64,000 nucleotides of DNA from an uncultured Akkermansia sp. (GCA_964430505.1 CAYSGH010000016.1:499-64498), one strand, 5' to 3'. Numbered from the stretch's first letter, positions 5,171-59,371 are shown. The notes: generated by a model from the sequence alone, not told the origin. Translations and numbers: made by a program.

Positions 5171-7453
5171 ATGTCGCATCAATTGGAGGATTCGTTGGGG
5201 CGCCGGTTGCTGGACTGGGTCCCGTTTGGGCTGGGGCAGCACAAGCCGCGGCATTTCCGGGACATGCTGACGGTCGCGTGGCGGAACCGCGACAACCTCG
5301 GGCACGCATGGAAGGTGCTGAGCCGGGGCGTGTGCGACGGGTGCGCGCTCGGGGTGGCCGGCTTCCATGACTGGACGCTGAAGGGGCCCCACCTGTGCAT
5401 GACGCGGCTGAACCTGCTTCGGCTGAACACGATGCCCGCGTTCGACCCCGCGCGGCTGGGCAACATCGCGCAACTGCGGTCGGACCTAGCCCGCGAGCGC
5501 GGCGACGGGCGGCCCGGCTGGGACAACGCGCAGTTGAGGGAACTGGGGCGCCTTCCCTACCCCATGGTGCGCGACGGCGGCGCGCCGGGCTTCCGAAGGG
5601 TGGGCTGGGACGAGGCGCTGGGCCGCCTCGGGCGGCGCCTGCGGGCGACGGACCCGCGCCGCATGGCCTTCTTCGTCACGGCGCGCGGGGTGACGAACGA
5701 GGTGTACTACATGGCGCAGAAGGCCGCGCGGTTCCTGGGAACGAACCACGTGGACAACGCCGCGCGGCTGTGCCACGCGCCCAGCACGGGCGCCATGAAG
5801 CACGCGGTGGGCGTCGCCGCGAGCACCTGCTCGTACTCGGACTGGTACGGGACGGACCTGATCGTGTTCTGGGGCTCCAACCCGGCCAACGACCAGCCGG
5901 TCTCAACCAAGTACCTGCTGGAAGCCCGAGGGCTGGGGACGCGCGTGGCCTTGGTCAACCCGTACATGGAGCCGGGCATGCGGCGGTATTGGGTGCCCAG
6001 CACGGCGGGGAGCGCGGTGTTCGGGACGCCCATGTCGGACTGGTGGTTTCCGGTGCGGCAAGGCGGCGACATCGCATTCATCCACGGGGTGCTGAAGGTG
6101 CTGATGGCGCGGGGCGGGCTCGACGAGGGCTTCATCGCGCGGCACACGGAGGGCTGGCCGGAGCTGGCGGCGCACGTGCAACGCCAGGACATGGCGACGC
6201 TCGAGAAGGCGGCGGGCCTCCCCGAGGCGTCGATGGCGGAGTTCGCGGACCTGCTCCAGCGCAGCCGCAACGCCGTGTTCGTGTGGAGCATGGGCATCAC
6301 GCAGCACGGCTACGGCGCGGATGCCGTCTCCATGGTGCTCAACCTCGGCCTGGCACGGGGCTACGTCGGACGCGAAAAGACGGGCCTGATGCCGATCCGC
6401 GGGCATTCCTCCGTCCAGGGCGGGGCCGAGATGGGCTGCTATTCGACGGCGCTGCCGGGCGGGAAGCCGTTGACGCGGGAAAACGTGCGGGCGTTGTCGG
6501 AGACGTATGGCTTCGAGGTGCCGGAGTGGCCCGGGCTGACGTCGGTGGAGATGGTCGAGGCGGCCGCGCGTGGGCAGTTGGACGTGTTCTACAACGTGGG
6601 CGGGAACTTCCTGCGGACGTTGCCGGAGCCGGACCGGGTGGCGGCGGCGCTTCGCAACGTTCCCGTGCGGGTGCACCAGGACATCCTCCTGGTGGACCAG
6701 ATGTTCGAGCCGTCGCGCGAGGAGACCTGGCTGTTGCCCGGAAAGACCCGGTACGAGCAGGACGACGGCGGCATCGAGACGACGACGGAGCGGCGCATTG
6801 CCTTCTCGCCGGAGATTCCCAGGGTGGTGGGCGAGGCCCGGGCGGAATGGAAGATCCTGCGGGACGTGGCGGCGGCGGCGTGGCCGGAGCGGGCCGCGTT
6901 GCTGGGCGGCGAGGACGGTTGGCGGCTGCGCGAGGAGATCGCGCGCGTGGTCCCCTTCTACGACGGCATCCAAGGGCTCCGGAAGACGGGCGACGCGATC
7001 CAATACGGCGGGCCGCGCCTGTGCGAGGGCGGGGTGTTCCCGACGGCGGATGGCAAGGCGCACTTCAAGGTGGTGGGGGTGCCGGACGAGAGCCTGCGGC
7101 CGCTGGGCTTTGCGGCGAAGGACGGCCCGCCGCGCTTCATGGTCTCCACGCGGCGTGGCAAGCAGTTCAACACGTTGATCTACGCGGAGGTGGACCCGTT
7201 GACGGGCGCGCCGCGGGACGCGGTGTTCATGAGCCCGGAGGACGCGGCGCGGCTGGGCCTGGCACGCGGCGACCGCATTCGGCTGAGGAGCGAGACGGGC
7301 ACGATGGAGGGCACGGCGTTCCCGGCGGAGATGGCGCCGGGCAACATGCAGGTGCACTGGCCCGAGGGGAACGTCCTGCTGGCGTCGGGCCGCGTGGACC
7401 CCGTCGGCGGCGTGCCGGACTACAACGCTTGGGTGGAGGTGGAGCGGCCTTGA
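5171..7453 (+). CDS. FdhF/YdeP-family molybdopterin oxidoreductase
   Basis: ATG at 5171 (MSHQLEDSLGRRLLDWVPFGLGQHKPRHFRDM...) inside ORF 4904..7453. GVCDGCALGVAGFHDW is the YdeP-type Cys cluster region. 760 aa, with a molybdopterin-binding C-terminal barrel (GDRIRLRSETGTMEG). No in-frame TGA, so not a selenoprotein. Confidence 0.85.
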   Translation: MSHQLEDSLGRRLLDWVPFGLGQHKPRHFRDMLTVAWRNRDNLGHAWKVLSRGVCDGCALGVAGFHDWTLKGPHLCMTRLNLLRLNTMPAFDPARLGNIAQLRSDLARERGDGRPGWDNAQLRELGRLPYPMVRDGGAPGFRRVGWDEALGRLGRRLRATDPRRMAFFVTARGVTNEVYYMAQKAARFLGTNHVDNAARLCHAPSTGAMKHAVGVAASTCSYSDWYGTDLIVFWGSNPANDQPVSTKYLLEARGLGTRVALVNPYMEPGMRRYWVPSTAGSAVFGTPMSDWWFPVRQGGDIAFIHGVLKVLMARGGLDEGFIARHTEGWPELAAHVQRQDMATLEKAAGLPEASMAEFADLLQRSRNAVFVWSMGITQHGYGADAVSMVLNLGLARGYVGREKTGLMPIRGHSSVQGGAEMGCYSTALPGGKPLTRENVRALSETYGFEVPEWPGLTSVEMVEAAARGQLDVFYNVGGNFLRTLPEPDRVAAALRNVPVRVHQDILLVDQMFEPSREETWLLPGKTRYEQDDGGIETTTERRIAFSPEIPRVVGEARAEWKILRDVAAAAWPERAALLGGEDGWRLREEIARVVPFYDGIQGLRKTGDAIQYGGPRLCEGGVFPTADGKAHFKVVGVPDESLRPLGFAAKDGPPRFMVSTRRGKQFNTLIYAEVDPLTGAPRDAVFMSPEDAARLGLARGDRIRLRSETGTMEGTAFPAEMAPGNMQVHWPEGNVLLASGRVDPVGGVPDYNAWVEVERP

Positions 7454-7544
7454 CGGGCGGGCGGCATCGCAAGGCCCCGGCGCGGGCGCACGGGTCCGGA
7501 CGGCGGGCTTGAATCAGGCAGGAAAGCGCCAAACGATCGCGGGC

Positions 7545-8522
7545 ATGGGCGACACGCTGAAGGCATTGCGGGCATTGTCAGACCCGACGCGCCTTCGGAT
7601 CGTGGCGTTGCTCGGGGCGGGCGAGTTGTCCGTGAACGAGATGCAGGAGGTCACGCGGCTGGGGCAGTCGCGGATTTCGACGCACCTGGGATTGCTGACG
7701 GAGGCGGGGCTGGTCGTGCTGCGAAAGGATGGCCGCCGCAGCTTTTACGGCTTGAGCACGGGCCTGGCATCCGATCTCGAAGCCCTGGTCCGGGCCGCCG
7801 CCAAGGGTGCGATGGAATTGCCGGAACGGGATTCCGACGAGGTCAACCTTCGCAGGGTGCTGGCGCTGCGCGAGGAGCGGGCGCAGGCGTACTTCAACCA
7901 TGTGGCGGGCCGGTTCGACCGGGTATACGGCCCGGGGCGCTCCTGGCAGGCGTTGGGTCACCTCCTGTTGCGCTTGTTGCCGCCCCTGGACGTGGCGGAC
8001 CTGGGGTCCGGCGAGGGGTTGGTGGCCGAGTTGCTGGCACGTCGATGCCGGCGCGTCATCGCGGTGGACAACTCGGAGCGCATGGTGGAGTTCGGGTCCC
8101 GCAAGGCGCGCGAGAACGGGATGGCAAACCTCGAGTTTCGGCTGGGCGACATCCTGCGGCCGCCCATCGAGGACGCCAGCATGGACGTGGCGATCCTCAG
8201 CCATGCCCTGCACCACGCGGAGGACCCGGCGGAGGCCGTCCGCGCGGCGCATCGGATCCTGCGGCCCGGCGGCCAGGTCCTCGTCCTGGACCTGCTCCAG
8301 CATCGCTTCGAGCAGGCGCGGGAACGGTACGGGGATCGTTGGCTGGGGTTTGCCCCGGCAGACTTGCAGCGATGGCTCGAGCAGGCGGGATTCGCCGCGA
8401 TCGAGGTCAGCGTCGTGTCGCGCGAGGAAGACCCGCCGCATTTCGAGACCCTGCTGGCGGCGGGCGTGAAACGGGAACAGCGGCCCCTCCCCCCGACATC
8501 GAGGACATCAATGGGCGGCTGA
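7545..8522 (+). CDS. ArsR/SmtB-family HTH regulator fused to a class I SAM-dependent methyltransferase
   Basis: ORF 7509..8522 begins at a TTG. The first ATG is at 7545 (MGDTLKALRALSDPTRLRIVALLGAGELSVNEMQEVTRLGQSRISTHLGLL, an ArsR wHTH). The C-terminal half has VADLGSGEGLVAELLA (SAM motif I) and a Methyltransf_11-like region. Confidence 0.8.
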   Translation: MGDTLKALRALSDPTRLRIVALLGAGELSVNEMQEVTRLGQSRISTHLGLLTEAGLVVLRKDGRRSFYGLSTGLASDLEALVRAAAKGAMELPERDSDEVNLRRVLALREERAQAYFNHVAGRFDRVYGPGRSWQALGHLLLRLLPPLDVADLGSGEGLVAELLARRCRRVIAVDNSERMVEFGSRKARENGMANLEFRLGDILRPPIEDASMDVAILSHALHHAEDPAEAVRAAHRILRPGGQVLVLDLLQHRFEQARERYGDRWLGFAPADLQRWLEQAGFAAIEVSVVSREEDPPHFETLLAAGVKREQRPLPPTSRTSMGG

Positions 8523-8526
8523 TTCG

Positions 8527-9279
8527 ATGCAATTCACGGCCCGTGCCCGGGCCATGGCATGGAAGGGGCCGATGAAGACATCGATGACGACGTTCCAAGG
8601 AGAGACGCAAGGCGTTGGGCAGGCGGCCGGCGGCGGCGACCGGGGCATCCCCCTGGGCTGGAAGCTGGCCTTCACGGCGTTCATGGCCGTGTGGGTGCCG
8701 GTGTACTGGACCCAGTATGGCCCCACGAACTTCCTCTATTTCTGCGACGTGGCCTTGTTCCTGACCCTGGCGGGGATGTGGCTGGAGAACCGGTTGCTGC
8801 TGTCGATGGCGGCGGTGGGAATCCTGCTGCCGCAGTTGTTCTGGTGCGCGGACTTCGTGGTGCAGGCGATGGGCGGGCGGCTCACGGGGATGACGGAGTA
8901 CATGTTCGATGCACGGCGGCCCCTGTTCCTCCGGGGCCTGTCGTTGTTCCACGGTTGGCTGCCGTTCCTGCTGCTGCTTGCGTTGCGGCGGCTGGGCTAC
9001 GACCGCCGGGCTCTTCCCGCGTGGACGGGGACCGCCTGGGCATTGTGCCTGGTGAGCTTCCTGCTGCTGCCCCCGGCCGGGCCGGAGCACGCGGGCAAGC
9101 TCACGCCCAACAACGTGAACTACGTCTGGGGCTTCGACGACGCCCGCCCGCAGGCGTGGCTGCCGCCGGGGCTCTACCTGATGGCGTGGATGGGGTCGCT
9201 GGCGGGCTTGGTCTATGCGCCCACGCACCTGCTGTTGTCCCGCTGGAGCCATGCTCGTGGACGGTGCACCGGCGCGTGA
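8527..9279 (+). CDS. hypothetical multi-pass integral membrane protein
   Basis: ATG 4 nt after the upstream stop. At least 5-6 hydrophobic helices (WKLAFTAFMAVWVPVYW, FLYFCDVALFLTLAGMW, LLLSMAAVGILLPQLFW, LSLFHGWLPFLLLLAL, WALCLVSFLLL, LYLMAWMGSLAGLVYA). I do not recognise the family. Confidence 0.55.
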   Translation: MQFTARARAMAWKGPMKTSMTTFQGETQGVGQAAGGGDRGIPLGWKLAFTAFMAVWVPVYWTQYGPTNFLYFCDVALFLTLAGMWLENRLLLSMAAVGILLPQLFWCADFVVQAMGGRLTGMTEYMFDARRPLFLRGLSLFHGWLPFLLLLALRRLGYDRRALPAWTGTAWALCLVSFLLLPPAGPEHAGKLTPNNVNYVWGFDDARPQAWLPPGLYLMAWMGSLAGLVYAPTHLLLSRWSHARGRCTGA

Positions 9280-9307
9280 GGTCGGCCGGGCTTCGCGCGG
9301 CGCACGC

Positions 9308-9323
9308 GTGGCATGGCGCTTGC
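9308..9323 (+). promoter_or_regulatory. candidate sigma-54 (-24/-12) promoter
   Basis: TGGCATGgcgcTTGCT compared with the consensus TGGCACG-N4-TTGCW. The GG and GC elements are correctly spaced, with one mismatch in the core. It lies in the 196-nt gap between the membrane-protein stop (9279) and the DUF3570 start (9476). Confidence 0.3.
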
Positions 9324-9475
9324 TGGCTAACCGGCAGCCAATGAGAGACCAGCCCGCAGTCGGCATGGATGAACCGTGCCCGGCCAATAATTGGCTAGAC
9401 GGTCGGGGCCGAAAGGACGGCACTGTTGGGGAGGGTTCGGCCGGCGCCGACCCCACCGCGAGCCACAAGATCCCC

Positions 9476-10768
9476 ATGGAAACACACGCGCGAGGCAGCC
9501 GTTGCCCCCTCCTCACCGGACCGGCCATTACCACGGCGCTGTGCCTGGCATTGCTGCTCCTGAAGCCACGCCGCGCCCTTGCGCAGGGCCGGGTCGAGTA
9601 TCGCTACGAGGACTATCGCGAGGACGGCAACCGCATGGACGTCCAGACGCACACGGCGTGGTTCGAGTACGCGTTGCACGAGAAGGTCACCGCGCGCGGG
9701 TCGTTCACGCGCGACGCGCTGGCGGGGGCCACGCCCACCGGCGGCCCCGGTGAACCCGGTGGCCCCGGCTACGAGTGGGTCAACATGCGGGACTTGCGCA
9801 ACGCAGGCTTCGTCGAGGCGTCCATCCGGGCCGGGCGCACGCTGACGACCCCGCAGGTCGCCTACAGCGAGGAGAGCGACTACCAGTCCACGGGCCTGTC
9901 GTTGACGGAGACCATCGACTTCAACCAGCGCAACACCTCGTTGGTGCTCGGCGTGGCTCGGAACTCGGACTCCGTGAAGGGGCGCTTCCAGAGGACCTTC
10001 CGGCACAAGGGCACGTGGGACTGGCTCGTGGGCGTCAACCAGGTCCTAGGGCCCCGCACCTACGCCACCTTCAACGTCACGCTGGGCTACGCGGACGGAT
10101 ACCTCAGCGACCCCTACAAGGGCGTGAACGTGTTCTTCGACCTGCCCGGCGACGTGTTCGACGCCAACCCATGGTACGCGGTGGACCCGGAGAAGCGGCC
10201 GTCCAGCAAGTTCAAGCAGGTGGCGTTCGCCAGCATCAACCACCTCGTGCCCGCCGTGAACGGCGCGGTCGATGCCAGCTATCGTTTCCACCACGACAAC
10301 TGGGGCGTGATCGCCAACACCGTGCAGGTGGGCTGGGCGCAGAAGCTCGGCCAGCGCGTCACGGTCGCGCCCTTGTTCCGGTACCATCACCAGACGGCGG
10401 CGGACTTCTTCGTGGCGCGGGTGAACTCGGACCCCGCCTTCGCGGGGAGCCGCGTGGCCTTCGATTCCACCAACAACTTTGTCGGCCAGGAGGGCGTGGA
10501 CCCGGGGTTCGACCTCGCCCTCGCGGACCCGGCCAACTACCAAATCGTCTCCATTCCGGCCTACCCGGACCATTACTCGGCGGATTACCGGCTGAGCGAG
10601 CTCCAGTCGTTCACCTTCGGCGTCAGCGTGGCCGTGCAAGTCCATGAACGCGCGACGTTGGTGCTGGGTTATCGGCGCTATGACATGCAGGGGCTCGACC
10701 CTCGCATCTCGGCGGCGACGTACCCGGACGCCCACATCTACAGCGTGGGCCTCAGCGCCACCTTCTAG
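9476..10768 (+). CDS. DUF3570-family predicted outer-membrane beta-barrel protein
   Basis: ATG at 9476 inside ORF 9215..10768 gives the signal peptide METHARGSRCPLLTGPAITTALCLALLLLKPRRALAQG. The body alternates in beta-barrel style (RVEYRYEDYREDGNRMDVQTHTAWFEYAL...) and ends in an aromatic residue (...YSVGLSATF). The family call comes from recollection of DUF3570 sequences and its usual neighbourhood with DUF4266, ApbE and thioredoxin genes. Confidence 0.65.
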   Translation: METHARGSRCPLLTGPAITTALCLALLLLKPRRALAQGRVEYRYEDYREDGNRMDVQTHTAWFEYALHEKVTARGSFTRDALAGATPTGGPGEPGGPGYEWVNMRDLRNAGFVEASIRAGRTLTTPQVAYSEESDYQSTGLSLTETIDFNQRNTSLVLGVARNSDSVKGRFQRTFRHKGTWDWLVGVNQVLGPRTYATFNVTLGYADGYLSDPYKGVNVFFDLPGDVFDANPWYAVDPEKRPSSKFKQVAFASINHLVPAVNGAVDASYRFHHDNWGVIANTVQVGWAQKLGQRVTVAPLFRYHHQTAADFFVARVNSDPAFAGSRVAFDSTNNFVGQEGVDPGFDLALADPANYQIVSIPAYPDHYSADYRLSELQSFTFGVSVAVQVHERATLVLGYRRYDMQGLDPRISAATYPDAHIYSVGLSATF

Positions 10769-10774
10769 GCCCGC

Positions 10775-11794
10775 ATGTCCCCTGCCCTTCCCAGCACGAG
10801 TCCCAGCCTCGGAGTTGCCCGGCCCGTCCCGGTGGACGCCGTGCGCACCCGGATTCTGGAGGGGGCGCGCCTGGGCAAAGGGCCCGGTTCCAACGAGTTG
10901 GCGTTCGCCGCCATGGGCACCCGTTGCCGGGTTTCGTTCGCCACGCCCTCGCCCGAGCCCGTGGCCCACGCCGTCATCGATTGGGTGGCCGCGTTCGAGG
11001 CACGATACAGCCGGTACCTGCCGGAGAGTTGGGTCTCCCAGGTCAACGCGGAGGCCGGGGGACACTGGATGCCCATGGATGCGGAGGCGGAGGCCTTGAT
11101 GCGCTTGTGCGGGCAGTTGGCCTACCTAACCCATGGGGCCTTGGATGCCACCGCGCTGCCCGTGGTCCAACTGTGGGATTGGAAGGTCGGCCGCGTGCCG
11201 TCCGATGCGGAGGTGGAGCACGCGCGGACGTTGGTGGGCTGGAAGAACGTCCAGTTCGCGCCGGGCAAGGTCCGGCTCCCCAAGCCCGGGATGGCGATCG
11301 ACCTCGGCGGCGTGGGCAAGGAATACGCCGTGGACCAAGTCATCCTCCTGCTGGCGCGGATGGGAGTCTCGTCGGCGTTGGTGGACTTTGGGGCGGACAT
11401 CCGGGTGTTGGGCCTGCCGGCGGATGGGCGGCCAGCGTGGAAGATCGGGCTGGAGGACCCGCGCAAGCCGGGCACGCCGTGGACGCACGTGGTGGTTCGG
11501 GACGGCGCGGTGGCGTCGTCGGGCGCCTACCTCCGCGGCTTTGAGTCCAGCGGCCGGCGATATGGCCACATCGTGGATCCGCGCACGGGACGGCCGTCGG
11601 CAAGCGACGTCTTGGCGGCGAGCGTGATGGCCCCGAGTTGCACGCAGGCGGGCATGTTGAGCACGGCGTTGTGCGTCCTGGGGTCGGACGCCGGGCGCCG
11701 CCTGCTGCTCGCCACTTCGGGGGTTGAGGGATGCATGGTTCTAGGCAATGGGTTCGTGGGCAGCGCAAGATTTCATGAATACGTCACGACGTAG
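10775..11794 (+). CDS. apbE: FAD:protein FMN transferase (ApbE family)
   Basis: 339 aa. AMGTRCRVSF..., ALDATALPVVQLWDWK, and AIDLGGVGKEYAVDQV (the ApbE GGIAKGYA-type motif). Starts 6 nt after the DUF3570 stop. Confidence 0.85.
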   Translation: MSPALPSTSPSLGVARPVPVDAVRTRILEGARLGKGPGSNELAFAAMGTRCRVSFATPSPEPVAHAVIDWVAAFEARYSRYLPESWVSQVNAEAGGHWMPMDAEAEALMRLCGQLAYLTHGALDATALPVVQLWDWKVGRVPSDAEVEHARTLVGWKNVQFAPGKVRLPKPGMAIDLGGVGKEYAVDQVILLLARMGVSSALVDFGADIRVLGLPADGRPAWKIGLEDPRKPGTPWTHVVVRDGAVASSGAYLRGFESSGRRYGHIVDPRTGRPSASDVLAASVMAPSCTQAGMLSTALCVLGSDAGRRLLLATSGVEGCMVLGNGFVGSARFHEYVTT

Positions 11795-12284
11795 CTTCGG
11801 GCTCCGGCTGCTGGCCGGGGCGTGGTGGGCGGCCTGGGCCCCGGCGTTTGCGGCGGGCCTGATCCAGGCCGGCGCGGACTTCCCGGACCTGTCCAAGGCC
11901 GGGCTGGAAGGCACGCTGCCGGACCTCAAGGGCAAGGTCGTGGTGGTGGACTTCTGGGCGAGCTGGTGCACGCCCTGCAAGAAGGCCATGCCCATGTACG
12001 CCGAACTGCACAAGGACTACGCGGGCAAGGACGTCGTCATCCTGGCCATCAGCCTCGACGAGGAGCGCAAGGCGTATGATGCGTTCCTCAAGAAGAACAG
12101 CCTCCCGTTCGCCGTCGCGCGCGACCCCAAGGGCAAGCTCGCCGAGACGGTGGGCGTGCAGGAGATGCCCACGTCGTTCGTCCTCGGCAAGGATGGCAAG
12201 GTGGCTTCCGTGCACAGCGGGTCGCTGGGCGACAAGGCCAAGGCGAAGCTTTCGGCGGAGATCGAGGGGTTGTTGAAGAAGTAG
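11775..12284 (+). CDS. TlpA-family periplasmic thiol:disulfide oxidoreductase
   Basis: ATG at 11775 (MNTSRRSFGLRLLAGAWWAAWAPAFAAG, a signal peptide) inside ORF 11748..12284. Thioredoxin fold with VVVDFWASWCTPCKKAMP (CxxC). Overlaps the apbE 3' end by 20 nt. Confidence 0.8.
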   Translation: MNTSRRSFGLRLLAGAWWAAWAPAFAAGLIQAGADFPDLSKAGLEGTLPDLKGKVVVVDFWASWCTPCKKAMPMYAELHKDYAGKDVVILAISLDEERKAYDAFLKKNSLPFAVARDPKGKLAETVGVQEMPTSFVLGKDGKVASVHSGSLGDKAKAKLSAEIEGLLKK

Positions 12285-12307
12285 GCGGGGCGGCGAAGGA
12301 GGGATCA

Positions 12308-12541
12308 ATGAAGGCAAGACTCGTGGGTTGGGCGGGGAAATGGGCCGGGTTGTTGGCGCTGGCGGCCTGGGCTGCGGGGTGCCAGGCGGTGAAGCCATGG
12401 CAAAGGGGACAGTTGTCCAACCCATTGATCCAGCCTGATCGCGACCCGTTGGGGCTGGCCTTGGCGGAGCATGTGTTCTTCTCGCGGGAGGCCGCCATGG
12501 GCGGCCGCGGCGTGGGCGGCGGCGGTTGCGGGTGCAACTGA
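12308..12541 (+). CDS. DUF4266-family small lipoprotein
   Basis: 77 aa. Lipobox LLALAAWAAGC (Cys25). PWQRGQLSNPLIQPDRDPL...EHVFFSREAAMGG and the terminal GGGGCGCN tail match my recollection of DUF4266 proteins. Confidence 0.65.
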   Translation: MKARLVGWAGKWAGLLALAAWAAGCQAVKPWQRGQLSNPLIQPDRDPLGLALAEHVFFSREAAMGGRGVGGGGCGCN

Positions 12542-12593
12542 GGGCTCGGGAAGGCGTCGGTTGAACAACGTGTTGGGAGACAAAGGACGGATC

Positions 12594-13781
12594 ATGAATG
12601 CAAAGAAATTGCCGGCATTGGTGGCGGCATTGTTCCTTCAGTTCGCGCCGCTGCTGCGGACGGTGGAGCCGGCGATGCTCGGCGTGTTGCAGCCCGTGTT
12701 CGTGTTGCTGCGCTGGGCCTCGGCGGCGGCCGCCGTCGCCGGCGGCGCACACGGCTTGTCCGGGGCAACCGGCCTTGCAACGTCTGCGGGAGTGCGCGGC
12801 ACCAACGGCGCAAGCCTCAGCTACCGCGTGCAGATCACCAGCGATGCCCACGGCACCGCAAAGTCCTACTCCGCCATCGGCTTGCCACCGGGCGTCTTGG
12901 TGGCCAGCTCCACGGGCGGCATCATTTCCGGAACGCCCTCGTCATCGGGAACCTTCGCCGCCCGCGTGACGGGATGGGAGTTTTCCAATCGAACGGGCGA
13001 CTCCTACACCGCCACCGTCACGTTCACCATCGTGGATGGCGCCCCGGTGATCTCGGCGCAACCCGCTCCCGTCACCGTGACGGAGGGCGGCACGGCGACG
13101 TTCTCCGTCACGGCCACGGGTTCCGCGCTGACCTATCGTTGGCTGCGCGACGGCCTCGAGCTTTCCGGCGCGACCAACGCCAGCCTGACCTTGAACCCGG
13201 TGAAGCTGACGGATGCCGGCCAGTATCGGGTGCGCGTGCAGAACTCCGGAGGCTCCTTGTTGAGCGCCGAGGCTCTGCTGACCGTGAACCCGATCATCGT
13301 GCCGCCCGTGTTCTCAACCTCGCCTGTCGGGAAGACCGTCCATCCCGGCGAATCCCTGACACTGACGGCCGTTGCAATCGTGCCGACCCCGGGGGTGACG
13401 CCCACGTACTCGTGGACGCGGGAGGGCTCGCCCGTGGACGGCACCGGTGAAACCCTCGTGCTCAACGCAGTCACCGCGAGCCAAGCGGGCCAGTATCGCG
13501 CCATTGCCACTGCCCATGGCCTCTCGTCCACGTCGGCTCCCGCCGCCGTCGTCGTGGTGGGCGACCTTCGCCTGTCGCCACCCAACCTTTTCGGCACCGT
13601 CGCCATGATGGGGACCGAAGCCATCCCGGGCAGGCGCTACATCCTCGAGCGTTCCGGCGACCCTGCCGCCACGACGTGGACCCTCGTCTCGGATCAGGTG
13701 TCGTCCGGCGGGTCCGTAAGTTGGTCCGACACGTCGCCGCCGCCCGACGCGGGTTTGTATCGGGTGCGGGTCCTCCCCTAG
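12594..13781 (+). CDS. secreted immunoglobulin I-set repeat protein
   Basis: ATG at 12594 (MNAKKLPALVAALFLQF...) inside ORF 12471..13781. A putative cadherin/Ig-like segment (YSAIGLPPGVLVASSTGGIISGTPSSSG), then two I-set domains (PVTVTEGGTATFSVTATGSALTYRWLRDG...DAGQYRVRVQN; VHPGESLTLTAV...QAGQYRAIAT), then a C-terminal module IPGRRYILERSGD...LYRVRVLP. Confidence 0.7.
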   Translation: MNAKKLPALVAALFLQFAPLLRTVEPAMLGVLQPVFVLLRWASAAAAVAGGAHGLSGATGLATSAGVRGTNGASLSYRVQITSDAHGTAKSYSAIGLPPGVLVASSTGGIISGTPSSSGTFAARVTGWEFSNRTGDSYTATVTFTIVDGAPVISAQPAPVTVTEGGTATFSVTATGSALTYRWLRDGLELSGATNASLTLNPVKLTDAGQYRVRVQNSGGSLLSAEALLTVNPIIVPPVFSTSPVGKTVHPGESLTLTAVAIVPTPGVTPTYSWTREGSPVDGTGETLVLNAVTASQAGQYRAIATAHGLSSTSAPAAVVVVGDLRLSPPNLFGTVAMMGTEAIPGRRYILERSGDPAATTWTLVSDQVSSGGSVSWSDTSPPPDAGLYRVRVLP

Positions 13782-13849
13782 CCCGTAGCGCCGCTGGTTT
13801 TCGTGGCGGCCCGCGGACGGCCATCGCCGCCGCGCAGGACGACGAGCCT

Positions 13850-15196
13850 CTACACCTGCTCGAAGTAGCGGGCCTTCTCCCAGTCGGTCACGGCCGACCC
13901 GAACGCGTCGCATTCCAGGCGTGCGTGGCGGACGAGGAACTCGACGACCGGATCCCCCAGGGTGCGCCGCGCGAGGCTGGATCCCTCGAGGAGCGACGCG
14001 GCCTCGGCGAGGCTCGACGGAAGGCGCGCGAGGGCGGGATCGACGTAGGCATTGCCCGGGTAGGGCGCGCCGCAGTCCAGGCCCTCCTCGATCCCGGCCA
14101 TTCCGGCCGCAAGCATGGCGGCGAAGGCAAGGTACACGTTGGCGTCGGCGCCCGGCATGCGGTTCTCGATCCGGAACGACTTGCCGTGGCCCACGATGCG
14201 GAACCCGCACGTGCGGTTGTCCGTGGACCAAGCCATGCGCGTGGGCGCCCAGCTTCCCGCCTGGTAGCGCTTGTAGCTGTTGATCGTCGGCGCAAAGAGC
14301 AGGCACAGCTCCGGGCAATACCGCAGCAACCCGCCGAGGAAGGCGCGGAACAAGGGCGAGCCCGCCCGGGCGGATTCGTCCCAGAAGGCCGGGCGCCCGT
14401 CCTTCCACAGGCTCATGTGCAGGTGGCAGGAGTTGCCGGCCTCGGAGGGCGCGTACTTGGCCATGAACGTGACGCTCTTGCCATGCTGGGAGGCGAGCTC
14501 GCGGACGCCCTGCTTGAAGAGGACGTGCATGTCGGACATGGCGAGCGGCTCGTCATGCGTGAAGTTGATCTCGTGCTGGCCCCGGCTCCACTCGCCCTTG
14601 CTGCTCTCCACCGGCACGCGCGCGACGGCCATTTGGTTGCGGATGGCGCGCATGAGCGGCTCGTCCCTGCCCGGCTGCATGAGGTGGTAGTCGATCCGGT
14701 AGTCGCTGGACGGACGCAGGTCCCGGTAACCGGCCGCGAAGGCCTCGTGGTAGGTCTGGTTGAACAGGTAGAACTCCAGTTCGCTGGCGCACTCGCAGTG
14801 CCATCCGAGCGCCTTCAGGCGGTCGAGCTGGCGGCGGAGCACGGACCGGGGAGCCTCCGCCACGAGGGACCCGTCCTCGCGCACGTAGTCGCACAGGACC
14901 AGCGCCGTGCCCGGATGCCACGGGATCTCCCGGAGCGTGGACAGGTCGGGCTGCATGACGAAGTCGCCGAAGCCGGCATCCCAGTTTGCGACCTTGAACC
15001 CGTCCAGAGGGTCCATGTCCATGTTGACCGTCAGCAGGTAGTTGCAGCCGTGCGTCCCGTGCGACACCACGCTGTCCAAAAAGAACCCGGCGCGGAAACG
15101 CTTCCCAACCAGCCGTCCGAACGGGTCCGGGAACCCAACCATGACGGTGTCGATGCGGCCGTCGGCGACGGCCTTTGCGAGGGCTTCGAGATTCAT
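13850..15196 (-). CDS. glutamine synthetase family protein (gamma-glutamyl-amine ligase, PuuA/GlnA3-like)
   Basis: ATG at 15196 (MNLEALAKAVADGRIDTVMVGFPDPFGRLVGKRF...) inside ORF 13850..15568, 448 aa. GS catalytic-domain motifs: NSCHLHMSLW, NSYKRYQAGSWAP, FRIENRMPGADANVYLA. Confidence 0.85.
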   Translation of the reverse strand: MNLEALAKAVADGRIDTVMVGFPDPFGRLVGKRFRAGFFLDSVVSHGTHGCNYLLTVNMDMDPLDGFKVANWDAGFGDFVMQPDLSTLREIPWHPGTALVLCDYVREDGSLVAEAPRSVLRRQLDRLKALGWHCECASELEFYLFNQTYHEAFAAGYRDLRPSSDYRIDYHLMQPGRDEPLMRAIRNQMAVARVPVESSKGEWSRGQHEINFTHDEPLAMSDMHVLFKQGVRELASQHGKSVTFMAKYAPSEAGNSCHLHMSLWKDGRPAFWDESARAGSPLFRAFLGGLLRYCPELCLLFAPTINSYKRYQAGSWAPTRMAWSTDNRTCGFRIVGHGKSFRIENRMPGADANVYLAFAAMLAAGMAGIEEGLDCGAPYPGNAYVDPALARLPSSLAEAASLLEGSSLARRTLGDPVVEFLVRHARLECDAFGSAVTDWEKARYFEQV

Positions 15197-17640: not shown

Positions 17641-17895
17641 GCCATCACTTTGATGGCGCCGTTGGATGCCGTCAACGCGGCGGCAAACATCCGGGGAAGG
17701 CTCCCGTGAAACCACAACGGCAGAACGGGCCGACGCCCGGTTCCCTCGACCACAGGGTTTCCATTGCTCCCGTTGAGAGCCCCAACCCAAGACTCCGGCC
17801 CATGCCCTGAAAGGCTGCCTCTCCCGGAGGCCCGGAGCCCCCCGCTCCCCGAACGCGCCCTCGCGTCCGGCGCGTCCGTCGATAACCTGTCGGCG

Positions 17896-19980
<2,085 letters not shown>

Positions 19981-38354: not shown

Positions 38355-41300
38355 CTATCGGACCTCGACCGCCCGGAAGAGCACCGGTTGGTCGGCGGCG
38401 CCGGCATCCACGGAGAAGGTCAGGCCGGAGCTGGTGGCGGTCCATTCGGCCTCGGACCACCACGATCCGAGGTCGGTGGACGACTCAATCCGATAACGGC
38501 GGCCGGGGGTGCCCCTCAGTTGAAGGGTGACGCGGCCATCGGGCCCGAACGTGGGGATTCCGAAGGTTGGCTCGCCCGAGGCTGGCTCGCCGTTGGAGGC
38601 CATGGGCGTGGGCTTGGCGACCACGTAGGAACCGGCCGCACCGTCCGGCTGGAGCCCGACGGCGGTGTTGAGCGCGGACGGAATCTGCGCGGTGAACCAG
38701 TCGATGGTGTTCGCCTGGCCGTTGACCGAACGGGTCAGCGCCAGCCGGAGTTGTGCACCGCCGGTCAATGGGAGCCGGAAGTTGGCATGGAGCTCATTCG
38801 GCCGCGATTGCTCGGGCTCGCCGTCGGCAAAGACGACGAGGTATCCGAGCGGCGGGAGGGTCGCTCCCTGGGGGAATGGCCACTTGAAGGGGGCAACGTC
38901 GGCGTCGGATAGGAAGACGCCATCCAGGGCGACCGGGAAGGCGCTGGTGTTGACGATCTCGATCCAGGGCTCGGTGGTGCCGGTGGCGTCCGCGAGGCCG
39001 GACGTATTGCGGGCCACGACCTCGTTGATGCGCAGCGGCGGGAACTCCGGCAACGACGCCACGACGTTGTTGGGGGCTCCGGGCGTGGAGGGGGAGTTGG
39101 ATCCACCCTGGAGGACCAGCTCGAGCCCGAAGACGACGTCCGAGCTGCCCACGTTCGCCTGGTGCACCTCGACGGCGAACGTGTTCTCGCCGGGGACGAG
39201 CAGGCTGGCGGGGAGCGTGAAGGGTCCCTCGAAGGCGGCGTCGCCCACGACCCGGTTCGCGAAGGTGTCATGGGTGGGATCGACGGACTCGTCCATGCCC
39301 AGGGAATGGGCGCGTCGGCCGTTGATCCAGAGGACGTAGCCGTCATCGAGGCAGACAGTGAGCTGGAGGGATGCGTCCGGCGGGAGGGCTGGCAACGTCA
39401 CCTTGCGGCGGAAGTAGTAGGTGGACTGGCCCAGGGCGAGCGCCGTGGTCTTGTTCGTGGGCAGGGCGGCGTTCTCGACGTAGTGAAGGCCCTCGCCCGA
39501 GAACCACGCCGAGTCATTGAACCCGGCCGTGCGCCAGTTGGTGCCGCTCACGGGCGGCCCGTCCTGGAAGTACCGCCATGCGTCGGTGAACCGGATGAGG
39601 TTGCGGCTGCCGGTGAAGGCGCCGGACACGGCCCAGTTCCCGGGCCTGTTGCGGTCCTGACGCGCGTCCACGAGCTGGAGCGACGCGTTGGTGGCCGCCG
39701 TGCCGCCCGCCCACGGGTAGCCGGAATCGTAGTCGAGCCGGTCGAGGATTTCCGAGGGCTGGGACGCCGAAGCCGGGGTGCGCAGGACGATGGAGTCGAA
39801 CTGGGTCCCGAGGCCGCCTGTCCATGCACCGGCCACGTTGGGGCCGTTGCCAAACGCGGCCCGGAAGGCGGCGACGTTTTGGACGACAACCACCTGCGCG
39901 GCGGGCGCAAGGACCGTGCCCGACGGGAACGCAAAGCGAATGCTGGAACCCACCAGTTCCATGCCGGAGATGTCCCAGGGCGTGTTGGTGGAGCGGTTGA
40001 AGATCTCGATGAACTGCGTCCCCGGCGTCTGCGGGCGGCGAAGGACCTCGTTGATCACCAGCTTCGGGCGCGCACGGGTGACCACCTCGACGACGCGCGT
40101 GGCCGAAAGATTCGGCATGGCATCGTCCGTCACGCGCACGGTCACCCGGTTCGTCGATGCGCCCATGTCGTCGGGCAACCGCCATTCGAGGTCGCCCGTC
40201 TCCGGGTTGATGGTCGCCCCGGCAGGCGCGCCCGGCTCGAGGCTGAAGCGGAGCGTTTGGCGGGGCAGGTCCGCATCCGAGGCGACGGCACGCACCGCGA
40301 TGCGTTGGCCCTCGTCCACGACCAGAACAGGCACGGGCGCGAGGACAGGTGGTTGGTTCACCTCGCGGACGTTGATCAACACCTCGCGGACCACGGACGC
40401 CTGCTCGGGCGAGGTGTCGCGTGCGCGGACGAGGACGACGTAGCTGCCGGGGCCCTGGGCCTCCGTGGGCGTCCATGAAATGCGGCCGGCCGATGCATCG
40501 ATCGCGAGGCCGGCGGGAACGGTTCCCTCGAGCGAGAAACGAACGGGCGATCCCTCGGGATCGGCCGCGACGAGGGGAAGATCCAGGCGGGTCAGCTCGT
40601 CGATGGTGACGGGCGCGGGCTGTGGGAAGTTGGGCGGGTTGTTGACCTCCGCGACGTTCACTCGGACGAGGCCGGTCGCGGAAAGCGGCGGCGTGCCGTT
40701 GTCCGTGACACGGAAGGCGACCGTCACGACGGAGCCGCCGCGCGACTCGTCCGGGATCCAGGTGAGTTGGCCCGTTGGCGAGAGGGAAAGGCCATCCGGC
40801 ACGGGTCCGTCCACGGCAAACGCCAGCGTGTTGGCGGGAAGGTCGGGGTCGGACGCAGGCAACCCGATGCTGAGGAGCTGACCCTCGCCGGCGTTGGCCT
40901 CGGTCACCTCCGGGACGACGGGCGGGCGATTCACCTCGGCAACGTTGATGGCGACGCGGGTGGTCCCGGTCCGGGGCGGCGCGCCGTTGTCCGTGGCGCG
41001 AACGAGGAACGAAAAGGTCCCGGGGCCATCGGACTCGGAGGGGGTCCAGCGGAAGGCGCCCGTGACGGGATGGATGCTGGATCCAGGCGGGGCATCGGAC
41101 CCCAGCGAGAAGGCAAAGGACTGGCCCGCGTCTGGGTCGGAGGCGACGGCGGTGAAGGTGGCCTCGGCCTGCTCGGGGACGTTGAGGCTCGCGACGGGAT
41201 TGAGGACGGGCGGGCGATTGGCCCCGGCGATCACGTTGGCCGCGCCCGGCGTGGGGGACTCCATGGCGAACAAGGGCGGCGCGGACGCATCGGGGAAGCG

Positions 41301-49163: not shown

Positions 49164-49238
49164 GTGAAACCAAGGCTGAATCAGCACAAACCGTGCTAGG
49201 AAACTCCAACGCCGACACCGCCAGACTGCGGACAAGCC

Positions 49239-56183: not shown

Positions 56184-56822
56184 AAGGGAAGGGTCTGGCG
56201 AAGGCCAGCCTGCAATAAAGCGTGTGACTATCCCGAGGACGCTCCCGAGCGTCAAGAATCGCGACGAGGCGTGACCGGCCCTTTCCGAGTCCCCGCGCGG
56301 ACGAAAGGGCTCGAATGGCACAAACCGCGCGCGGCACTCCCATGCACGCGCATGGCGTGCCTCGTGGGAAACTCCTCGACGGAGTCGGTCTTCCCCCGGT
56401 CGGCATGTCCCGGGCACCATCGCGCGCTGGCACGAGGCGGTAGCAGCGCACCGTCGCCATGGCTCGCATTCCCGCGTGTCCTTGGCCGCACGGCGGGCTC
56501 GTCAGCCGCGCCCACTGTGCCCTGCTTGTCCTGCAAGCGGCATGTTTCCACACCACGAGGCGACCCCAATCGGGATGGTTGCCCTGCACGACCCGCGGTG
56601 CCCCACGCCGGCCGACCCAAGCCCCAGGCCCATGACGCGCTGCAAGCGCACGGGATCCTCGGACGCCGGACTCGATGCCTCGCCCAAAGGAATGGCGTCA
56701 CCCCCCCCTTGCACCTGGGGCCATCCAGCATGGTGATCCCCGGAGTTTTGTACGGCCCGGCCTGAATTCACGCTCCACAACGTGTCCAACCTGCTGGAAG
56801 GTCTGGATCATCTCATGATCTC

Positions 56823-59342: not shown

Positions 59343-59371
59343 ACGATCCCCTGCCCCGCCTCCGAAGCCCC

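What the first reader, a model, noticed from the sequence alone, without database searches (positions are those of the whole stretch)
8527..13781. Orphan ApbE inside a DUF3570 / TlpA / DUF4266 envelope cassette: candidate uncharacterised extracytoplasmic redox system
Six same-strand genes are packed head to tail. A multi-pass membrane protein (8527..9279) comes first, followed by a 196-nt gap. Then come the DUF3570 beta-barrel (9476..10768), apbE 6 nt later, and tlpA overlapping apbE by 20 nt. The DUF4266 lipoprotein follows 23 nt on, and a secreted Ig protein 52 nt after that. Each product downstream of the gap has a signal peptide or lipobox, except ApbE, where I did not identify one. ApbE is a flavin transferase that normally sits next to its FMN-accepting substrate (Nqr, Rnf, fumarate reductase-like or FMN_bind proteins). 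No such acceptor is in this window. The combination of flavin transferase, thioredoxin-fold reductase, Cys-tailed lipoprotein and outer-membrane barrel has, to my knowledge, no assigned function.
Basis: partly seen in the sequence, partly recalled or inferred. Interest (0 to 1): 0.75.

Follow-up and report, generated by a model that had tools for sequence, protein, structure and literature searches.

The report
Known DUF3570 flavin cassette, new partner
This is a verrucomicrobial copy of an envelope redox gene cluster first described in 2021, in which the flavin-attaching enzyme ApbE modifies the neighbouring outer-membrane protein DUF3570, so ApbE is not an orphan; the adjacent Ig-repeat protein also carries a conserved flavin-attachment motif and is probably a second, undescribed target.

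Summary
All six ORFs, their spacings and the Pfam calls (DUF3570, ApbE, TlpA-like thioredoxin, DUF4266, Ig) were reproduced.

ApbE is not an orphan. Méheust et al. 2021 (eLife, PMC8238504) showed experimentally that DUF3570 is an ApbE substrate. They also described ApbE+DUF3570+thioredoxin-like+DUF4266 clusters: 227 with DsbD and 316 without.

The window's DUF3570 keeps the acceptor threonine (DALAGAT, T86). It models as a 16-strand outer-membrane barrel.

I compared 80 Verrucomicrobiota species genomes and 80 metagenome loci.
- The 8527 membrane protein is not a partner (1/65 loci).
- The Ig protein is a partner (61/65).
- The most conserved part of the Ig protein is an N-terminal [H/D]-[A/G]-[V/L]-S-G-A-[T/S] motif. 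Its last residue is Thr or Ser in 96 of 96 distinct sequences. This matches the ApbE flavinylation motif. I found no paper that describes this.
- The cluster's ApbE lacks any signal peptide in every locus I could read (65/65). This is unexplained.

Verdict: a known, functionally unassigned system in a lineage variant with a probable second flavinylated component. Interest is moderate.

The parts
9383..9395 (.). Perfect palindrome GCCAATAATTGGC in the 196-nt gap, about 80 nt upstream of the DUF3570 start. Candidate operator or promoter element of the cassette.
   Evidence: Unique in the 64-kb window (0.08 expected). Conserved upstream of DUF3570 in L010 and, with one change, in L009. Function is inferred only.
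9476..10768 (+). DUF3570 outer-membrane beta-barrel, 430 aa. It is the ApbE flavinylation substrate. The signal peptide is aa 1-36 (…RRALA|Q).
   Evidence: PF12094, 194 bits. AF2 pLDDT 88, about 16 strands, C-terminal Phe. Foldseek top hits are OM barrels OccD2, FadL, BcsC and TonB-dependent receptors. The family was shown to be flavinylated by its cognate ApbE in PMC8238504.
9713..9733 (+). Flavinylation motif D80-A-L-A-G-A-T86 of DUF3570. T86 is the predicted FMN acceptor.
   Evidence: Translation verified. D80, G84, A85, P87, T88 and G89 are invariant and T86 nearly invariant in 22 homologues. The consensus in 80 genomes is D[AGS][IL]SGA[TS]P[TS]G. It matches D-x-x-[S/T]-G-A-[S/T] (PMC12052999), except that position 4 is Ala here.
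10775..11794 (+). ApbE FAD:protein FMN transferase, 339 aa, without a signal peptide.
   Evidence: PF02424, 238 bits. It aligns to T. maritima TM1553 and T. pallidum Ftp at E about 1e-37. The motifs DLGGVGKEYA, SGAY, HIVDPRTG and LSTA are present. No hydrophobic N-terminus in any of 65 related loci.
11775..12284 (+). TlpA/ResA-like periplasmic thioredoxin, 169 aa. The active site CTPC is at 11967-11978. The N-terminus MNTSRRSFG… is twin-arginine-like.
   Evidence: AhpC-TSA, Thioredoxin_8 and Redoxin. NCBIfam ResA and TlpA hits are below their cut-offs. CxxC verified. Present in 70/71 related loci.
12308..12541 (+). DUF4266 small lipoprotein, 77 aa. The lipobox AAG-C25 has its Cys at 12380-12382. 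The C-terminus is the invariant …GGGGCGCN, with the CGC at 12527-12535.
   Evidence: PF14086. 145 of 149 distinct homologues end in CGCN, and the lipobox is x[STA]GC. Present in 68/69 related loci.
12594..13781 (+). Ig-repeat partner protein, 395 aa. It has a conserved N-terminal module (two hydrophobic segments), a flexible linker carrying a flavinylation-type motif, and then four beta-sandwich domains.
   Evidence: Ig_3, Ig_2 and I-set. AF2 pLDDT 86.5: helices 3-23 and 33-48, disordered 41-61, then four beta-sandwich domains. A homologue lies next to the cassette in 61/65 genomes and in rearranged metagenome loci.
12750..12770 (+). Motif H53-G-L-S-G-A-T59 of the Ig protein. T59 is the predicted second FMN acceptor.
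   Evidence: In 96 distinct orthologue N-termini: S56 95%, G57 90%, A58 95%, and position 59 is T or S in 100%. Position 53 is H, D, Q or N. Deep branches read YDAVSGA[ST], which is the canonical motif. Flavinylation itself has not been tested.

Best explanation
The region 9476-13781 is a verrucomicrobial member of the DUF3570-type ('DsbD-type') flavinylation system described by Méheust et al. 2021.

Shown, here or in the literature:
- DUF3570 proteins are covalently flavinylated by their neighbouring ApbE at [S/T]GA[S/T] motifs.
- The window protein is a bona fide DUF3570 outer-membrane barrel that keeps the motif and its acceptor Thr86.
- ApbE has intact catalytic motifs.
- The five genes DUF3570-apbE-tlpA-DUF4266-Ig travel together across the phylum.

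Inferred:
1. ApbE transfers FMN from FAD to Thr86 of DUF3570, and also to Thr59 of the Ig protein. The N-terminal [H/D]-[A/G]-[V/L]-S-G-A-[T/S] motif is that protein's most conserved feature.
2. Reducing equivalents enter through a thiol relay. A DsbD/CcdA (encoded elsewhere in this genome, but inside the cluster in deeper-branching relatives) reduces the TlpA-like thioredoxin (CTPC). This in turn cycles the CGC tail of the DUF4266 lipoprotein.
3. The dithiols reduce the protein-bound flavins. These sit on the cell-surface side of the barrel (T86 is near the end of strand 3, before predicted extracellular loop 2) and at the start of the Ig stalk. Electrons therefore leave across the outer membrane to an as yet unknown acceptor, possibly Fe(III) or another oxidant.

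The 8527 membrane protein is a neighbour, not a component.

My confidence is about 0.9 that this is the DUF3570/ApbE system with DUF3570 as substrate, about 0.65 that the Ig protein is also flavinylated, and about 0.3 for the full electron path as drawn.
For: - Literature: DUF3570 of C. luteolum is flavinylated by its cognate ApbE. Mutating the motif serines abolishes this. ApbE+DUF3570+thioredoxin-like+DUF4266 clusters number 227 with DsbD and 316 without.
- Family assignments.
- Motif conservation in DUF3570.
- Barrel fold.
- ApbE catalytic motifs and similarity to solved FMN transferases.
- Synteny in 80 species genomes: ApbE 72/73, TlpA 70/71, DUF4266 68/69, Ig partner 61/65, DsbD 17/68. 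The same linkage holds in 80 metagenome loci of GC 0.36-0.70, including rearranged orders.
- Ig N-terminal motif statistics.
- The motif lies in a disordered linker, and ApbE accepts a 7-residue linear tag, best at a terminus. D-to-A at the first motif position has little effect.
- DUF4266 has an invariant CGCN end and a lipobox.
- In L008 a full DsbD, and then RibF (FAD synthetase), lie in or next to the cluster.
Against: - There is no biochemical evidence for this locus.
- The window's DUF3570 motif reads AGAT, not [S/T]GAT (also in 2 of the 80 related genomes). This clade has one motif, whereas the paper reports two.
- ApbE has no export signal in any relative, yet both proposed substrates are exported. 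The site of flavinylation is therefore unexplained.
- No DsbD/CcdA is present in the 64-kb window.
- The surface-side placement of T86 rests only on strand counting in an AF2 model.
- No terminal acceptor or iron transporter is linked to the cluster here.
- The Ig motif could be conserved for another reason, for example signal-peptide processing.
Confidence: 0.72

Rival explanations
1. One reading: ApbE here is a true orphan with no acceptor, and the cassette is a wholly undescribed system.
For: No FMN_bind, Nqr or Rnf protein is present in the window. ApbE lacks a signal peptide.
Against: DUF3570 is a published, experimentally supported ApbE substrate, and the four-gene cluster is described. 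The window protein keeps the motif.
Confidence: 0.03
2. This is the same known system, but the Ig protein is not flavinylated. It would be a co-transcribed surface or periplasmic scaffold or adhesin. The conserved …AVSGA[ST]… stretch would be the end of a long signal sequence (a processing or recognition site), not an ApbE site.
For: The motif directly follows two hydrophobic segments laid out like the N1-H1-N2-H2-C pattern of long signal sequences. Position 53 is His more often than the canonical Asp. A few orthologues read SAAT, SAGS or SKAS.
Against: Signal-peptide c-regions are not normally conserved to the residue across a phylum. The last position is always Thr or Ser, and deep branches read exactly D-A-V-S-G-A-[S/T]. 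The gene stays next to apbE even when the gene order changes. D-to-A at the first position is tolerated by ApbE.
Confidence: 0.3
3. The cassette is not an outward electron conduit. It would be an envelope thiol-maintenance or repair module: TlpA and DUF4266 keep cysteines (or a metal site) of the barrel or Ig protein reduced, with the flavin acting as a local redox buffer or oxidant sensor.
For: TlpA-family proteins classically reduce specific periplasmic client cysteines (established knowledge of the ResA, CcmG and TlpA-ScoI pathways). The NCBIfam best hits are ResA, StoA and DsbE types. No terminal reductase or acceptor gene is linked.
Against: DUF3570 and the Ig protein have no conserved cysteines in the alignments. 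The only conserved Cys pair outside TlpA is the CGC tail of DUF4266. Two covalent flavins are an expensive arrangement for a buffer.
Confidence: 0.2
4. It is a metal (iron) reduction and uptake device. The barrel would be a channel whose flavin reduces Fe(III) at the surface for import.
For: [quoted passage not shown] The barrel fold resembles substrate channels and TonB-dependent receptor barrels.
Against: No iron transporter, Fur box or siderophore gene was seen next to the cassette in the window or in the related loci inspected. The palindrome at 9383 is not a recognised Fur box (own knowledge).
Confidence: 0.15

Closest known systems
DUF3570 / 'DsbD-type' flavinylation system (Méheust et al. 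2021, eLife 10:e66878; tested protein from Chlorobium luteolum)
   Same: The same four families sit together (ApbE, DUF3570, a thioredoxin-like protein, and DUF4266 with a C-terminal CXC). DUF3570 carries the [S/T]GA[S/T]-type motif. The window belongs to the subset without an adjacent DsbD (316 such clusters in the paper).
   Different: - One motif per DUF3570 here, against two in the paper.
- The thioredoxin here is Redoxin/Thioredoxin_8-type, not PF13899.
- ApbE has no signal peptide.
- A fifth conserved gene is present: an Ig-repeat protein with its own flavinylation-type motif, which the paper does not mention.
NqrC/RnfG and other FMN_bind-domain substrates of ApbE
   Same: The same enzyme family and the same D-x-x-[S/T]-G-A-[S/T] logic, with a phosphoester to the terminal Thr or Ser.
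   Different: There is no FMN_bind fold here. The acceptor is in a beta-barrel strand (DUF3570) or in a disordered N-terminal linker (Ig protein). No Nqr or Rnf membrane complex is present.
Listeria FmnB/PplA flavin-based extracellular electron transfer
   Same: An ApbE-like enzyme flavinylates a surface-associated protein that passes electrons outward.
   Different: The Listeria system is Gram-positive, quinone/Ndh2-fed, and uses FMN_bind domains. Here the cell is diderm, the input is thiol-based (DsbD/TlpA), and the carrier is an outer-membrane barrel.
MtrCAB-type porin-cytochrome conduits
   Same: This is an analogy only: an outer-membrane barrel combined with a redox protein that reaches the cell surface.
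   Different: There are no haems and no homology. The redox centres would be one or two covalent FMNs. Nothing is known about whether the barrel and the Ig protein bind each other.
DsbD to TlpA/CcmG/ResA periplasmic reducing pathways
   Same: A CxxC thioredoxin fold with an export signal. DsbD is encoded inside the cluster in 17/68 relatives.
   Different: The presumed client is a CGC-tailed lipoprotein and/or a flavoprotein, not apocytochrome c or ScoI.
Cytoplasmic ApbE of Klebsiella pneumoniae (flavinylates a soluble fumarate reductase)
   Same: An ApbE without a signal peptide (PMC12052999).
   Different: Its substrate is cytoplasmic. Here both candidate substrates carry export signals.
Long N1-H1-N2-H2-C signal sequences of type V secreted proteins (ESPR)
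   Same: The Ig protein's 50-residue N-terminus has the same layout: charged, hydrophobic, Arg, hydrophobic, small-residue site.
   Different: No sequence homology was tested or claimed. The partner barrel is DUF3570, not a TpsB or autotransporter domain.

Membership tests
DUF3570 (PF12094) | Match to the Pfam model above the gathering score | tested here: met
   194.1 bits against a cut-off of 25, E=4.8e-57.
DUF3570 (PF12094) | [S/T]GA[S/T] flavinylation motif with a terminal Ser/Thr acceptor | tested here: met
   DALAGAT at aa 80-86. The acceptor T86 is kept. The first S/T is Ala here and in 2 of the 80 related genomes.
DUF3570 (PF12094) | Two flavinylation motifs, as in the 228 proteins of Méheust et al. 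| tested here: not met
   73 of 80 related verrucomicrobial proteins have exactly one strict motif. The window protein has only the variant AGAT site. This is a clade difference, not a reason for exclusion.
DUF3570 (PF12094) | Covalent FMN attached by the cognate ApbE | not testable with these tools
   Needs co-expression with in-gel fluorescence or mass spectrometry.
ApbE FAD:protein FMN transferase (PF02424) | Match to the Pfam model, and similarity to solved FMN transferases | tested here: met
   238 bits. 1vrm and 4xdt at E about 1e-37 over aa 41-324.
ApbE FAD:protein FMN transferase (PF02424) | Catalytic and Mg/FAD-binding motifs (His of H-I-x-D-P-x-T-G, DLGG.GK.YA, SG.Y) | tested here: met
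   HIVDPRTG at aa 265, DLGGVGKEYA at aa 176, SGAY at aa 249. The assignment of roles rests on published Vc_ApbE/Ftp work.
ApbE FAD:protein FMN transferase (PF02424) | N-terminal lipoprotein or Sec signal (typical of extracytosolic ApbE) | tested here: not met
   46 hydrophilic residues precede the MGT motif. The same holds in 53 + 12 related loci. The NCBIfam equivalog PRK10461 scores 103 bits against a cut-off of 498.
DUF4266 (PF14086) | Pfam match, secretion or lipoprotein signal, and C-terminal CXC | tested here: met
   70.5 bits. AAG-C lipobox and …CGCN end.
TlpA/ResA-like thiol:disulfide oxidoreductase | Thioredoxin fold with a CxxC and an export signal | tested here: met
   AhpC-TSA, Thioredoxin_8 and Redoxin hits, and CTPC. 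Not an equivalog of TlpA or ResA: 57 and 97 bits, below the cut-offs of 230 and 170.
DsbD-type flavinylation system (Méheust 2021) | ApbE, DUF3570, a thioredoxin-like protein and DUF4266 in one cluster | tested here: met
   The arrangement is conserved in 80 genomes.
DsbD-type flavinylation system (Méheust 2021) | DsbD (PF02683) encoded in the cluster | tested here: not met
   No DsbD transmembrane domain in the 64-kb window. Present in 17/68 relatives. The paper lists 316 clusters that also lack it.
FMN_bind (PF04205) ApbE substrates | An FMN_bind domain protein near apbE | tested here: not met
   No such Pfam hit in the cassette proteins or in 20 other large ORFs of the window. The only D..[STA]GA[ST] motif found in the GC3-selected ORFs is in DUF3570; that gene set left out the Ig and DUF4266 genes.
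Extended signal peptide region of type V secretion | Homology to the ESPR consensus and a type V translocator partner | not tested
   Only the N1-H1-N2-H2-C layout was compared by eye.

The most novel reading that the evidence does not exclude
The cassette encodes a haem-free, flavin-based conduit across the outer membrane. A signal-less, cytoplasmic ApbE flavinylates linear motifs on two unfolded precursors before Sec export: the DUF3570 barrel, and an Ig-stalk protein whose mature N-terminus is essentially a natural 'flavin-tag'. After export and assembly, the two FMNs sit at or in the surface side of the barrel. They are reduced from the periplasm by a DsbD to TlpA to DUF4266(CGC) thiol relay, and pass electrons to extracellular acceptors.
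Probability: 0.15. Interest if true: 0.8.

Novelty: new variant of a known kind. Interest (0 to 1): 0.42.

Why it matters
The DUF3570 system is one of the larger sets of ApbE-linked gene clusters whose function is still unknown. Méheust et al. counted more than 500 clusters.

The comparison made here adds three testable points to the published picture.
1. A fifth conserved component, an Ig-repeat protein, has a near-invariant flavinylation-type motif. It would be a new class of ApbE substrate with no FMN-binding fold.
2. In a whole phylum-level clade the cognate ApbE has no export signal although its substrates are exported. This raises the question of where flavinylation happens. It also raises the question of whether a flavinylated chain can pass through Sec.
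3. The acceptor Thr of the barrel is predicted to lie on the cell-surface side.

If confirmed, these points would support a cytochrome-free route for electrons across a diderm envelope in Verrucomicrobiota, which are abundant in soil and freshwater. For this window alone, the practical result is more modest: the 'orphan ApbE' is explained by existing literature.

Tried and rejected
- The supplementary tables of Méheust et al. were searched for PF12094, PF14086, PF13927, PF05345 and Verrucomicrobiota. Nothing was found in the text held, so I could not check whether their clusters list Ig proteins. The main text does not mention them.
- A homologue search with only the first 150 aa of the Ig protein returned 10 fragments. 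The full-length search and the locus surveys were needed instead.
- Rfam search of 7000-14500, for example for an FMN riboswitch: no match.
- Sigma-70 promoter scan: none. Terminator-like sites were not above the shuffled expectation.
- The 8527 membrane protein as transmembrane electron carrier: rejected. It is present in 1 of 65 related loci, and only in close relatives where it follows the ArsR-methyltransferase gene. Its family is widespread (1229 clusters) and has no Pfam model, and its fusions are uninformative.
- Stop-codon read-through fusing DUF3570 to ApbE: the two are in the same frame in the window, but in different frames in L001. Rejected.
- A Kyte-Doolittle window as a signal-peptide detector did not separate the Ala/Trp-rich signals of TlpA and DUF4266 from background. 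The 'no signal in ApbE' conclusion therefore rests on the short, charged N-terminus (about 32-46 aa before the first core strand) seen in all loci.
- tblastn with a DsbD and a ThuA from related loci found neither in the window.
- Foldseek of the Ig model gave only generic tandem-Ig hits.
- I could not retrieve the C. luteolum sequences to place its two motifs on the alignment.

Full report
**Observation.** ORF listing reproduces the six + strand genes exactly as described: 8527-9279, a 196-nt gap, 9476-10768, 10775-11794 (6 nt later), 11775-12284 (20-nt overlap), 12308-12541 (23 nt later) and 12594-13781 (52 nt later). Pfam assigns DUF3570 (E=4.8e-57), ApbE (1.5e-70), AhpC-TSA/Thioredoxin_8/Redoxin, DUF4266 (2.4e-19) and Ig_3/Ig_2/I-set. 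The first gene matches nothing in Pfam or NCBIfam. Gene calls on public contigs that carry identical proteins agree. The window is about 69% G+C. Its closest relatives are Verrucomicrobiota MAGs of the Limisphaerales/Pedosphaera type.

**What it is.** A full-text search for DUF3570 and ApbE leads to Méheust et al. 2021 (PMC8238504). That paper started from 'orphan' apbE genes and found DUF3570 next to them. It showed that the Chlorobium luteolum DUF3570 is flavinylated when co-expressed with its cognate ApbE. It also showed that both [S/T]GA[S/T] serines must be mutated to abolish flavinylation. [quoted passage not shown] There are 227 such clusters with DsbD and 316 without. The paper proposes a hybrid thioredoxin/flavin electron-transfer system of uncertain function, with a possible iron link in 25 clusters. 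The window's cassette is therefore a member of a described system. No later characterisation was found. A 2025 ApbE review does not mention DUF3570.

**DUF3570 here.**
- In an alignment of 22 homologues the stretch D80-x-x-S-G84-A85-T86-P87-T88-G89 is invariant or nearly so. The window reads DALAGATPTGG. The acceptor Thr is kept and the first Ser is Ala.
- Across 80 species genomes, 73 DUF3570 proteins have exactly one strict motif, with consensus D[AGS][IL]SGA[TS]P[TS]G. The published set has two motifs.
- AlphaFold2 gives a confident model (pLDDT 88) of about 16 long strands ending in Phe. Foldseek finds only outer-membrane barrels (OccD2, FadL, BcsC, TonB-dependent receptors) at low TM-scores. 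The protein is therefore a generic OM barrel without a close solved relative.
- I counted strands from a periplasmic N-terminus. In that register the three long loops fall on the extracellular side. T86 then lies near the top of strand 3, before extracellular loop 2. This is an inference from the model only.

**Comparative genomics.** I scanned one genome per species with the DUF3570 alignment. This returned 80 loci, all Verrucomicrobiota. I searched their six-frame ORFs with the window's proteins and counted only loci long enough to judge.

| Gene | Present / loci evaluable |
|---|---|
| ApbE | 72/73 |
| TlpA | 70/71 |
| DUF4266 | 68/69 |
| Homologue of the Ig protein's N-terminus | 61/65 |
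| DsbD, between DUF4266 and the Ig gene (deeper branches only) | 17/68 |
| ThuA-family gene upstream | 22/65 |
| The window's 8527 membrane protein | 1/65 |

- In L008 the order is DUF3570-ApbE-TlpA-DUF4266-DsbD-Ig, followed by RibF (FAD synthetase) and a flavoprotein.
- A second scan, of metagenomes with a DUF4266 alignment, gave 80 more loci of G+C 0.36-0.70. The Ig-type partner stays with the cassette there even when the order is rearranged or the gene is duplicated.
- The window has no DsbD transmembrane domain, FMN_bind, Nqr or Rnf gene.

**The Ig protein is the new element.**
- Its first 60 residues are the most conserved part of the family. In 96 distinct N-termini P19 is 100% conserved, R22 95% and G50 99%.
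- A motif follows: position 53 is H, D, Q or N; 54 is A or G; 55 is V or L; S56 is 95%; G57 90%; A58 95%. Position 59 is Thr (56%) or Ser (44%), so it always carries a hydroxyl.
- Deep-branching members read YDAVSGA[ST]. This is exactly the ApbE consensus D-x-x-[S/T]-G-A-[S/T], in which the last residue carries FMN.
- The review also records that replacing the Asp has little effect. It records that a 7-residue linear tag is sufficient and works best at a protein terminus.
- In the AlphaFold2 model (pLDDT 86.5) residues 3-23 and 33-48 are helices. Residues 41-61, which contain the motif, are disordered. Four confident beta-sandwich domains follow. Foldseek sees only generic tandem-Ig stalks.
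- The N-terminus has the charged / hydrophobic / Arg / hydrophobic / small-residue layout described for long signal sequences of type V secreted proteins. Positions 49 (A/L/M) and 51 (S/G/A/T in 92%) fit the -3/-1 rule. Cleavage there would leave the motif one residue from the mature N-terminus (inference).
- I found no paper linking ApbE to Ig-like proteins. Haft's preprint notes that in some Proteobacteria a surface-sorted JDVT-CTERM protein accompanies DUF4266, DUF3570 and TlpA. A lineage-specific surface partner may therefore be a general feature.

**ApbE.** It aligns over aa 41-324 with T. maritima TM1553 and T. pallidum Ftp (E about 1e-37). It keeps DLGGVGKEYA, SGAY, HIVDPRTG and LSTA. 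The ORF cannot start upstream of 10775, because a stop lies at 10766-10768. The 46 residues before the first core strand (…AMGT) are hydrophilic. The same holds for 53 further genome loci and 12 metagenome loci, where the N-terminus is typically MVLxxxxx[IV]RxRVxxSAV…. Signal-less ApbEs are known for cytoplasmic substrates. Here, however, both candidate substrates are exported. Méheust et al. obtained flavinylated DUF3570 from insoluble material after cytoplasmic co-expression. This shows that ApbE can modify the non-native chain in the cytoplasm. Flavinylation before Sec export is thus enzymatically possible but untested, and I leave the point as unexplained.

**TlpA and DUF4266.** TlpA has a CTPC active site. 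Its N-terminus (MNTSRRSFG…) looks twin-arginine-like, but that feature occurs in only 26 of 114 distinct relatives. DUF4266 has a lipobox (AAG-C), and 145 of 149 distinct homologues end in …GGCGCN. From memory, CGC peptides form a comparatively oxidising disulfide (about -170 mV). This was not checked here. It would fit a position between a thioredoxin and a flavin.

**Neighbours.**
- The 8527 protein belongs to a widespread family without a Pfam model (1229 clusters). Homology starts near residue 38.
- It follows an ArsR-HTH/SAM-methyltransferase gene both here and in L004-L006.
- The 196-nt gap holds a unique palindrome, GCCAATAATTGGC (9383-9395). It is conserved in L010 and L009.
- No Rfam family and no sigma-70 consensus were found.

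**Mechanism and rivals.**
- Best-supported explanation: ApbE loads FMN on T86 of the barrel, and probably on T59 of the Ig protein. A DsbD/CcdA to TlpA to DUF4266(CGC) thiol relay supplies electrons. The flavins, predicted to lie on the surface side, pass them on to an unknown acceptor.
- The identity of the system and its first substrate is well supported. Flavinylation of the Ig protein is a strong sequence-based prediction. The electron path and its direction are inferred.
- Rival 1: the Ig motif is part of signal processing, not a flavin site.
- Rival 2: the cassette is an envelope thiol-maintenance module.
- Rival 3: the cassette has an iron-reduction and uptake role.

**Novelty and score.** The finding as written is already known in kind. 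This locus is an ordinary member of the verrucomicrobial form of that system. What appears new is the conserved Ig-repeat partner with a flavinylation-type motif, the single-motif barrel, and the phylum-wide absence of an export signal on ApbE. I rate it a new variant of a known kind, of moderate interest.

Noticed in passing
window 10775-10915 (ApbE N-terminus); also L001-L168: The cluster's ApbE has no signal peptide or lipobox in any of 65 readable related loci, although DUF3570, TlpA, DUF4266 and the Ig protein all carry export signals. Where flavinylation takes place is unexplained.
   Followed up: partly
window 9383-9395: Perfect palindrome GCCAATAATTGGC in the gap upstream of DUF3570. 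It is unique in the window (0.08 expected) and conserved in L010 and L009. It may be an operator, and an ArsR-family regulator gene lies about 900 nt upstream.
   Followed up: partly
window 11775-11860: The TlpA N-terminus MNTSRRSFGLRLL… resembles a twin-arginine (Tat) signal. The RR feature occurs in only 26 of 114 distinct relatives, so it is specific to a subclade.
   Followed up: partly
window 8527-9279 and 7509-8522: The multi-pass membrane protein belongs to a widespread family (1229 clusters at 50% identity) with no Pfam or NCBIfam model. Homology begins near residue 38, so the true start is probably later than 8527. In the window and in L004-L006 it follows an ArsR-HTH/SAM-methyltransferase fusion gene.
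   Followed up: partly
L001 7934-8836, L007 7964-8893 and 20 other loci: A ThuA-family (PF06283) gene lies on the same strand directly upstream of DUF3570 in 22 of 65 related genomes. It is absent from the window. Whether it is functionally linked is unknown.
   Followed up: no
L008 17308-18818: In a deep-branching relative the cassette (with DsbD) is followed by RibF (FAD synthetase/flavokinase) and a PF02441 flavoprotein gene. This fits a flavin-supply link.
   Followed up: no
L054, L084, L086, L140, L165, L167: The Ig-type partner gene is duplicated in tandem in several loci. Both copies keep the N-terminal module. Some partners exceed 1000-1600 aa.
   Followed up: partly
L026 7893-9182: One genome has a DUF3570 homologue with none of the other cassette genes within 8 kb. 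It may be a solitary paralogue.
   Followed up: no
window 38358-49238 (-): A giant ORF of about 3600 aa with high GC3. It contains Ig domains 40-43% identical to those of the cassette's Ig protein (tblastn at 47163-47438 and 48333-48581). It has no match to the N-terminal flavin-motif module.
   Followed up: no
window 56766-60838 (+): A PSCyt2/PSD1 (DUF1549/DUF1553) gene followed by a DUF1501 gene, a pair typical of Planctomycetes-Verrucomicrobia genomes. The same pair lies near the cassette in L001 and L008.
   Followed up: no
window 17764-19980 (+): A DUF255/Thioredox_DsbH thioredoxin-domain protein (E=7e-78) lies 4 kb downstream. It gave the only weak tblastn match to the thioredoxin part of DsbD. 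It is not a membrane DsbD.
   Followed up: partly
window 9476-9586 and alignment A1: The DUF3570 signal peptides share a conserved P-R-R (or similar) just after the hydrophobic core and before the A-x-A|E site. This is an unusual place for two arginines.
   Followed up: no
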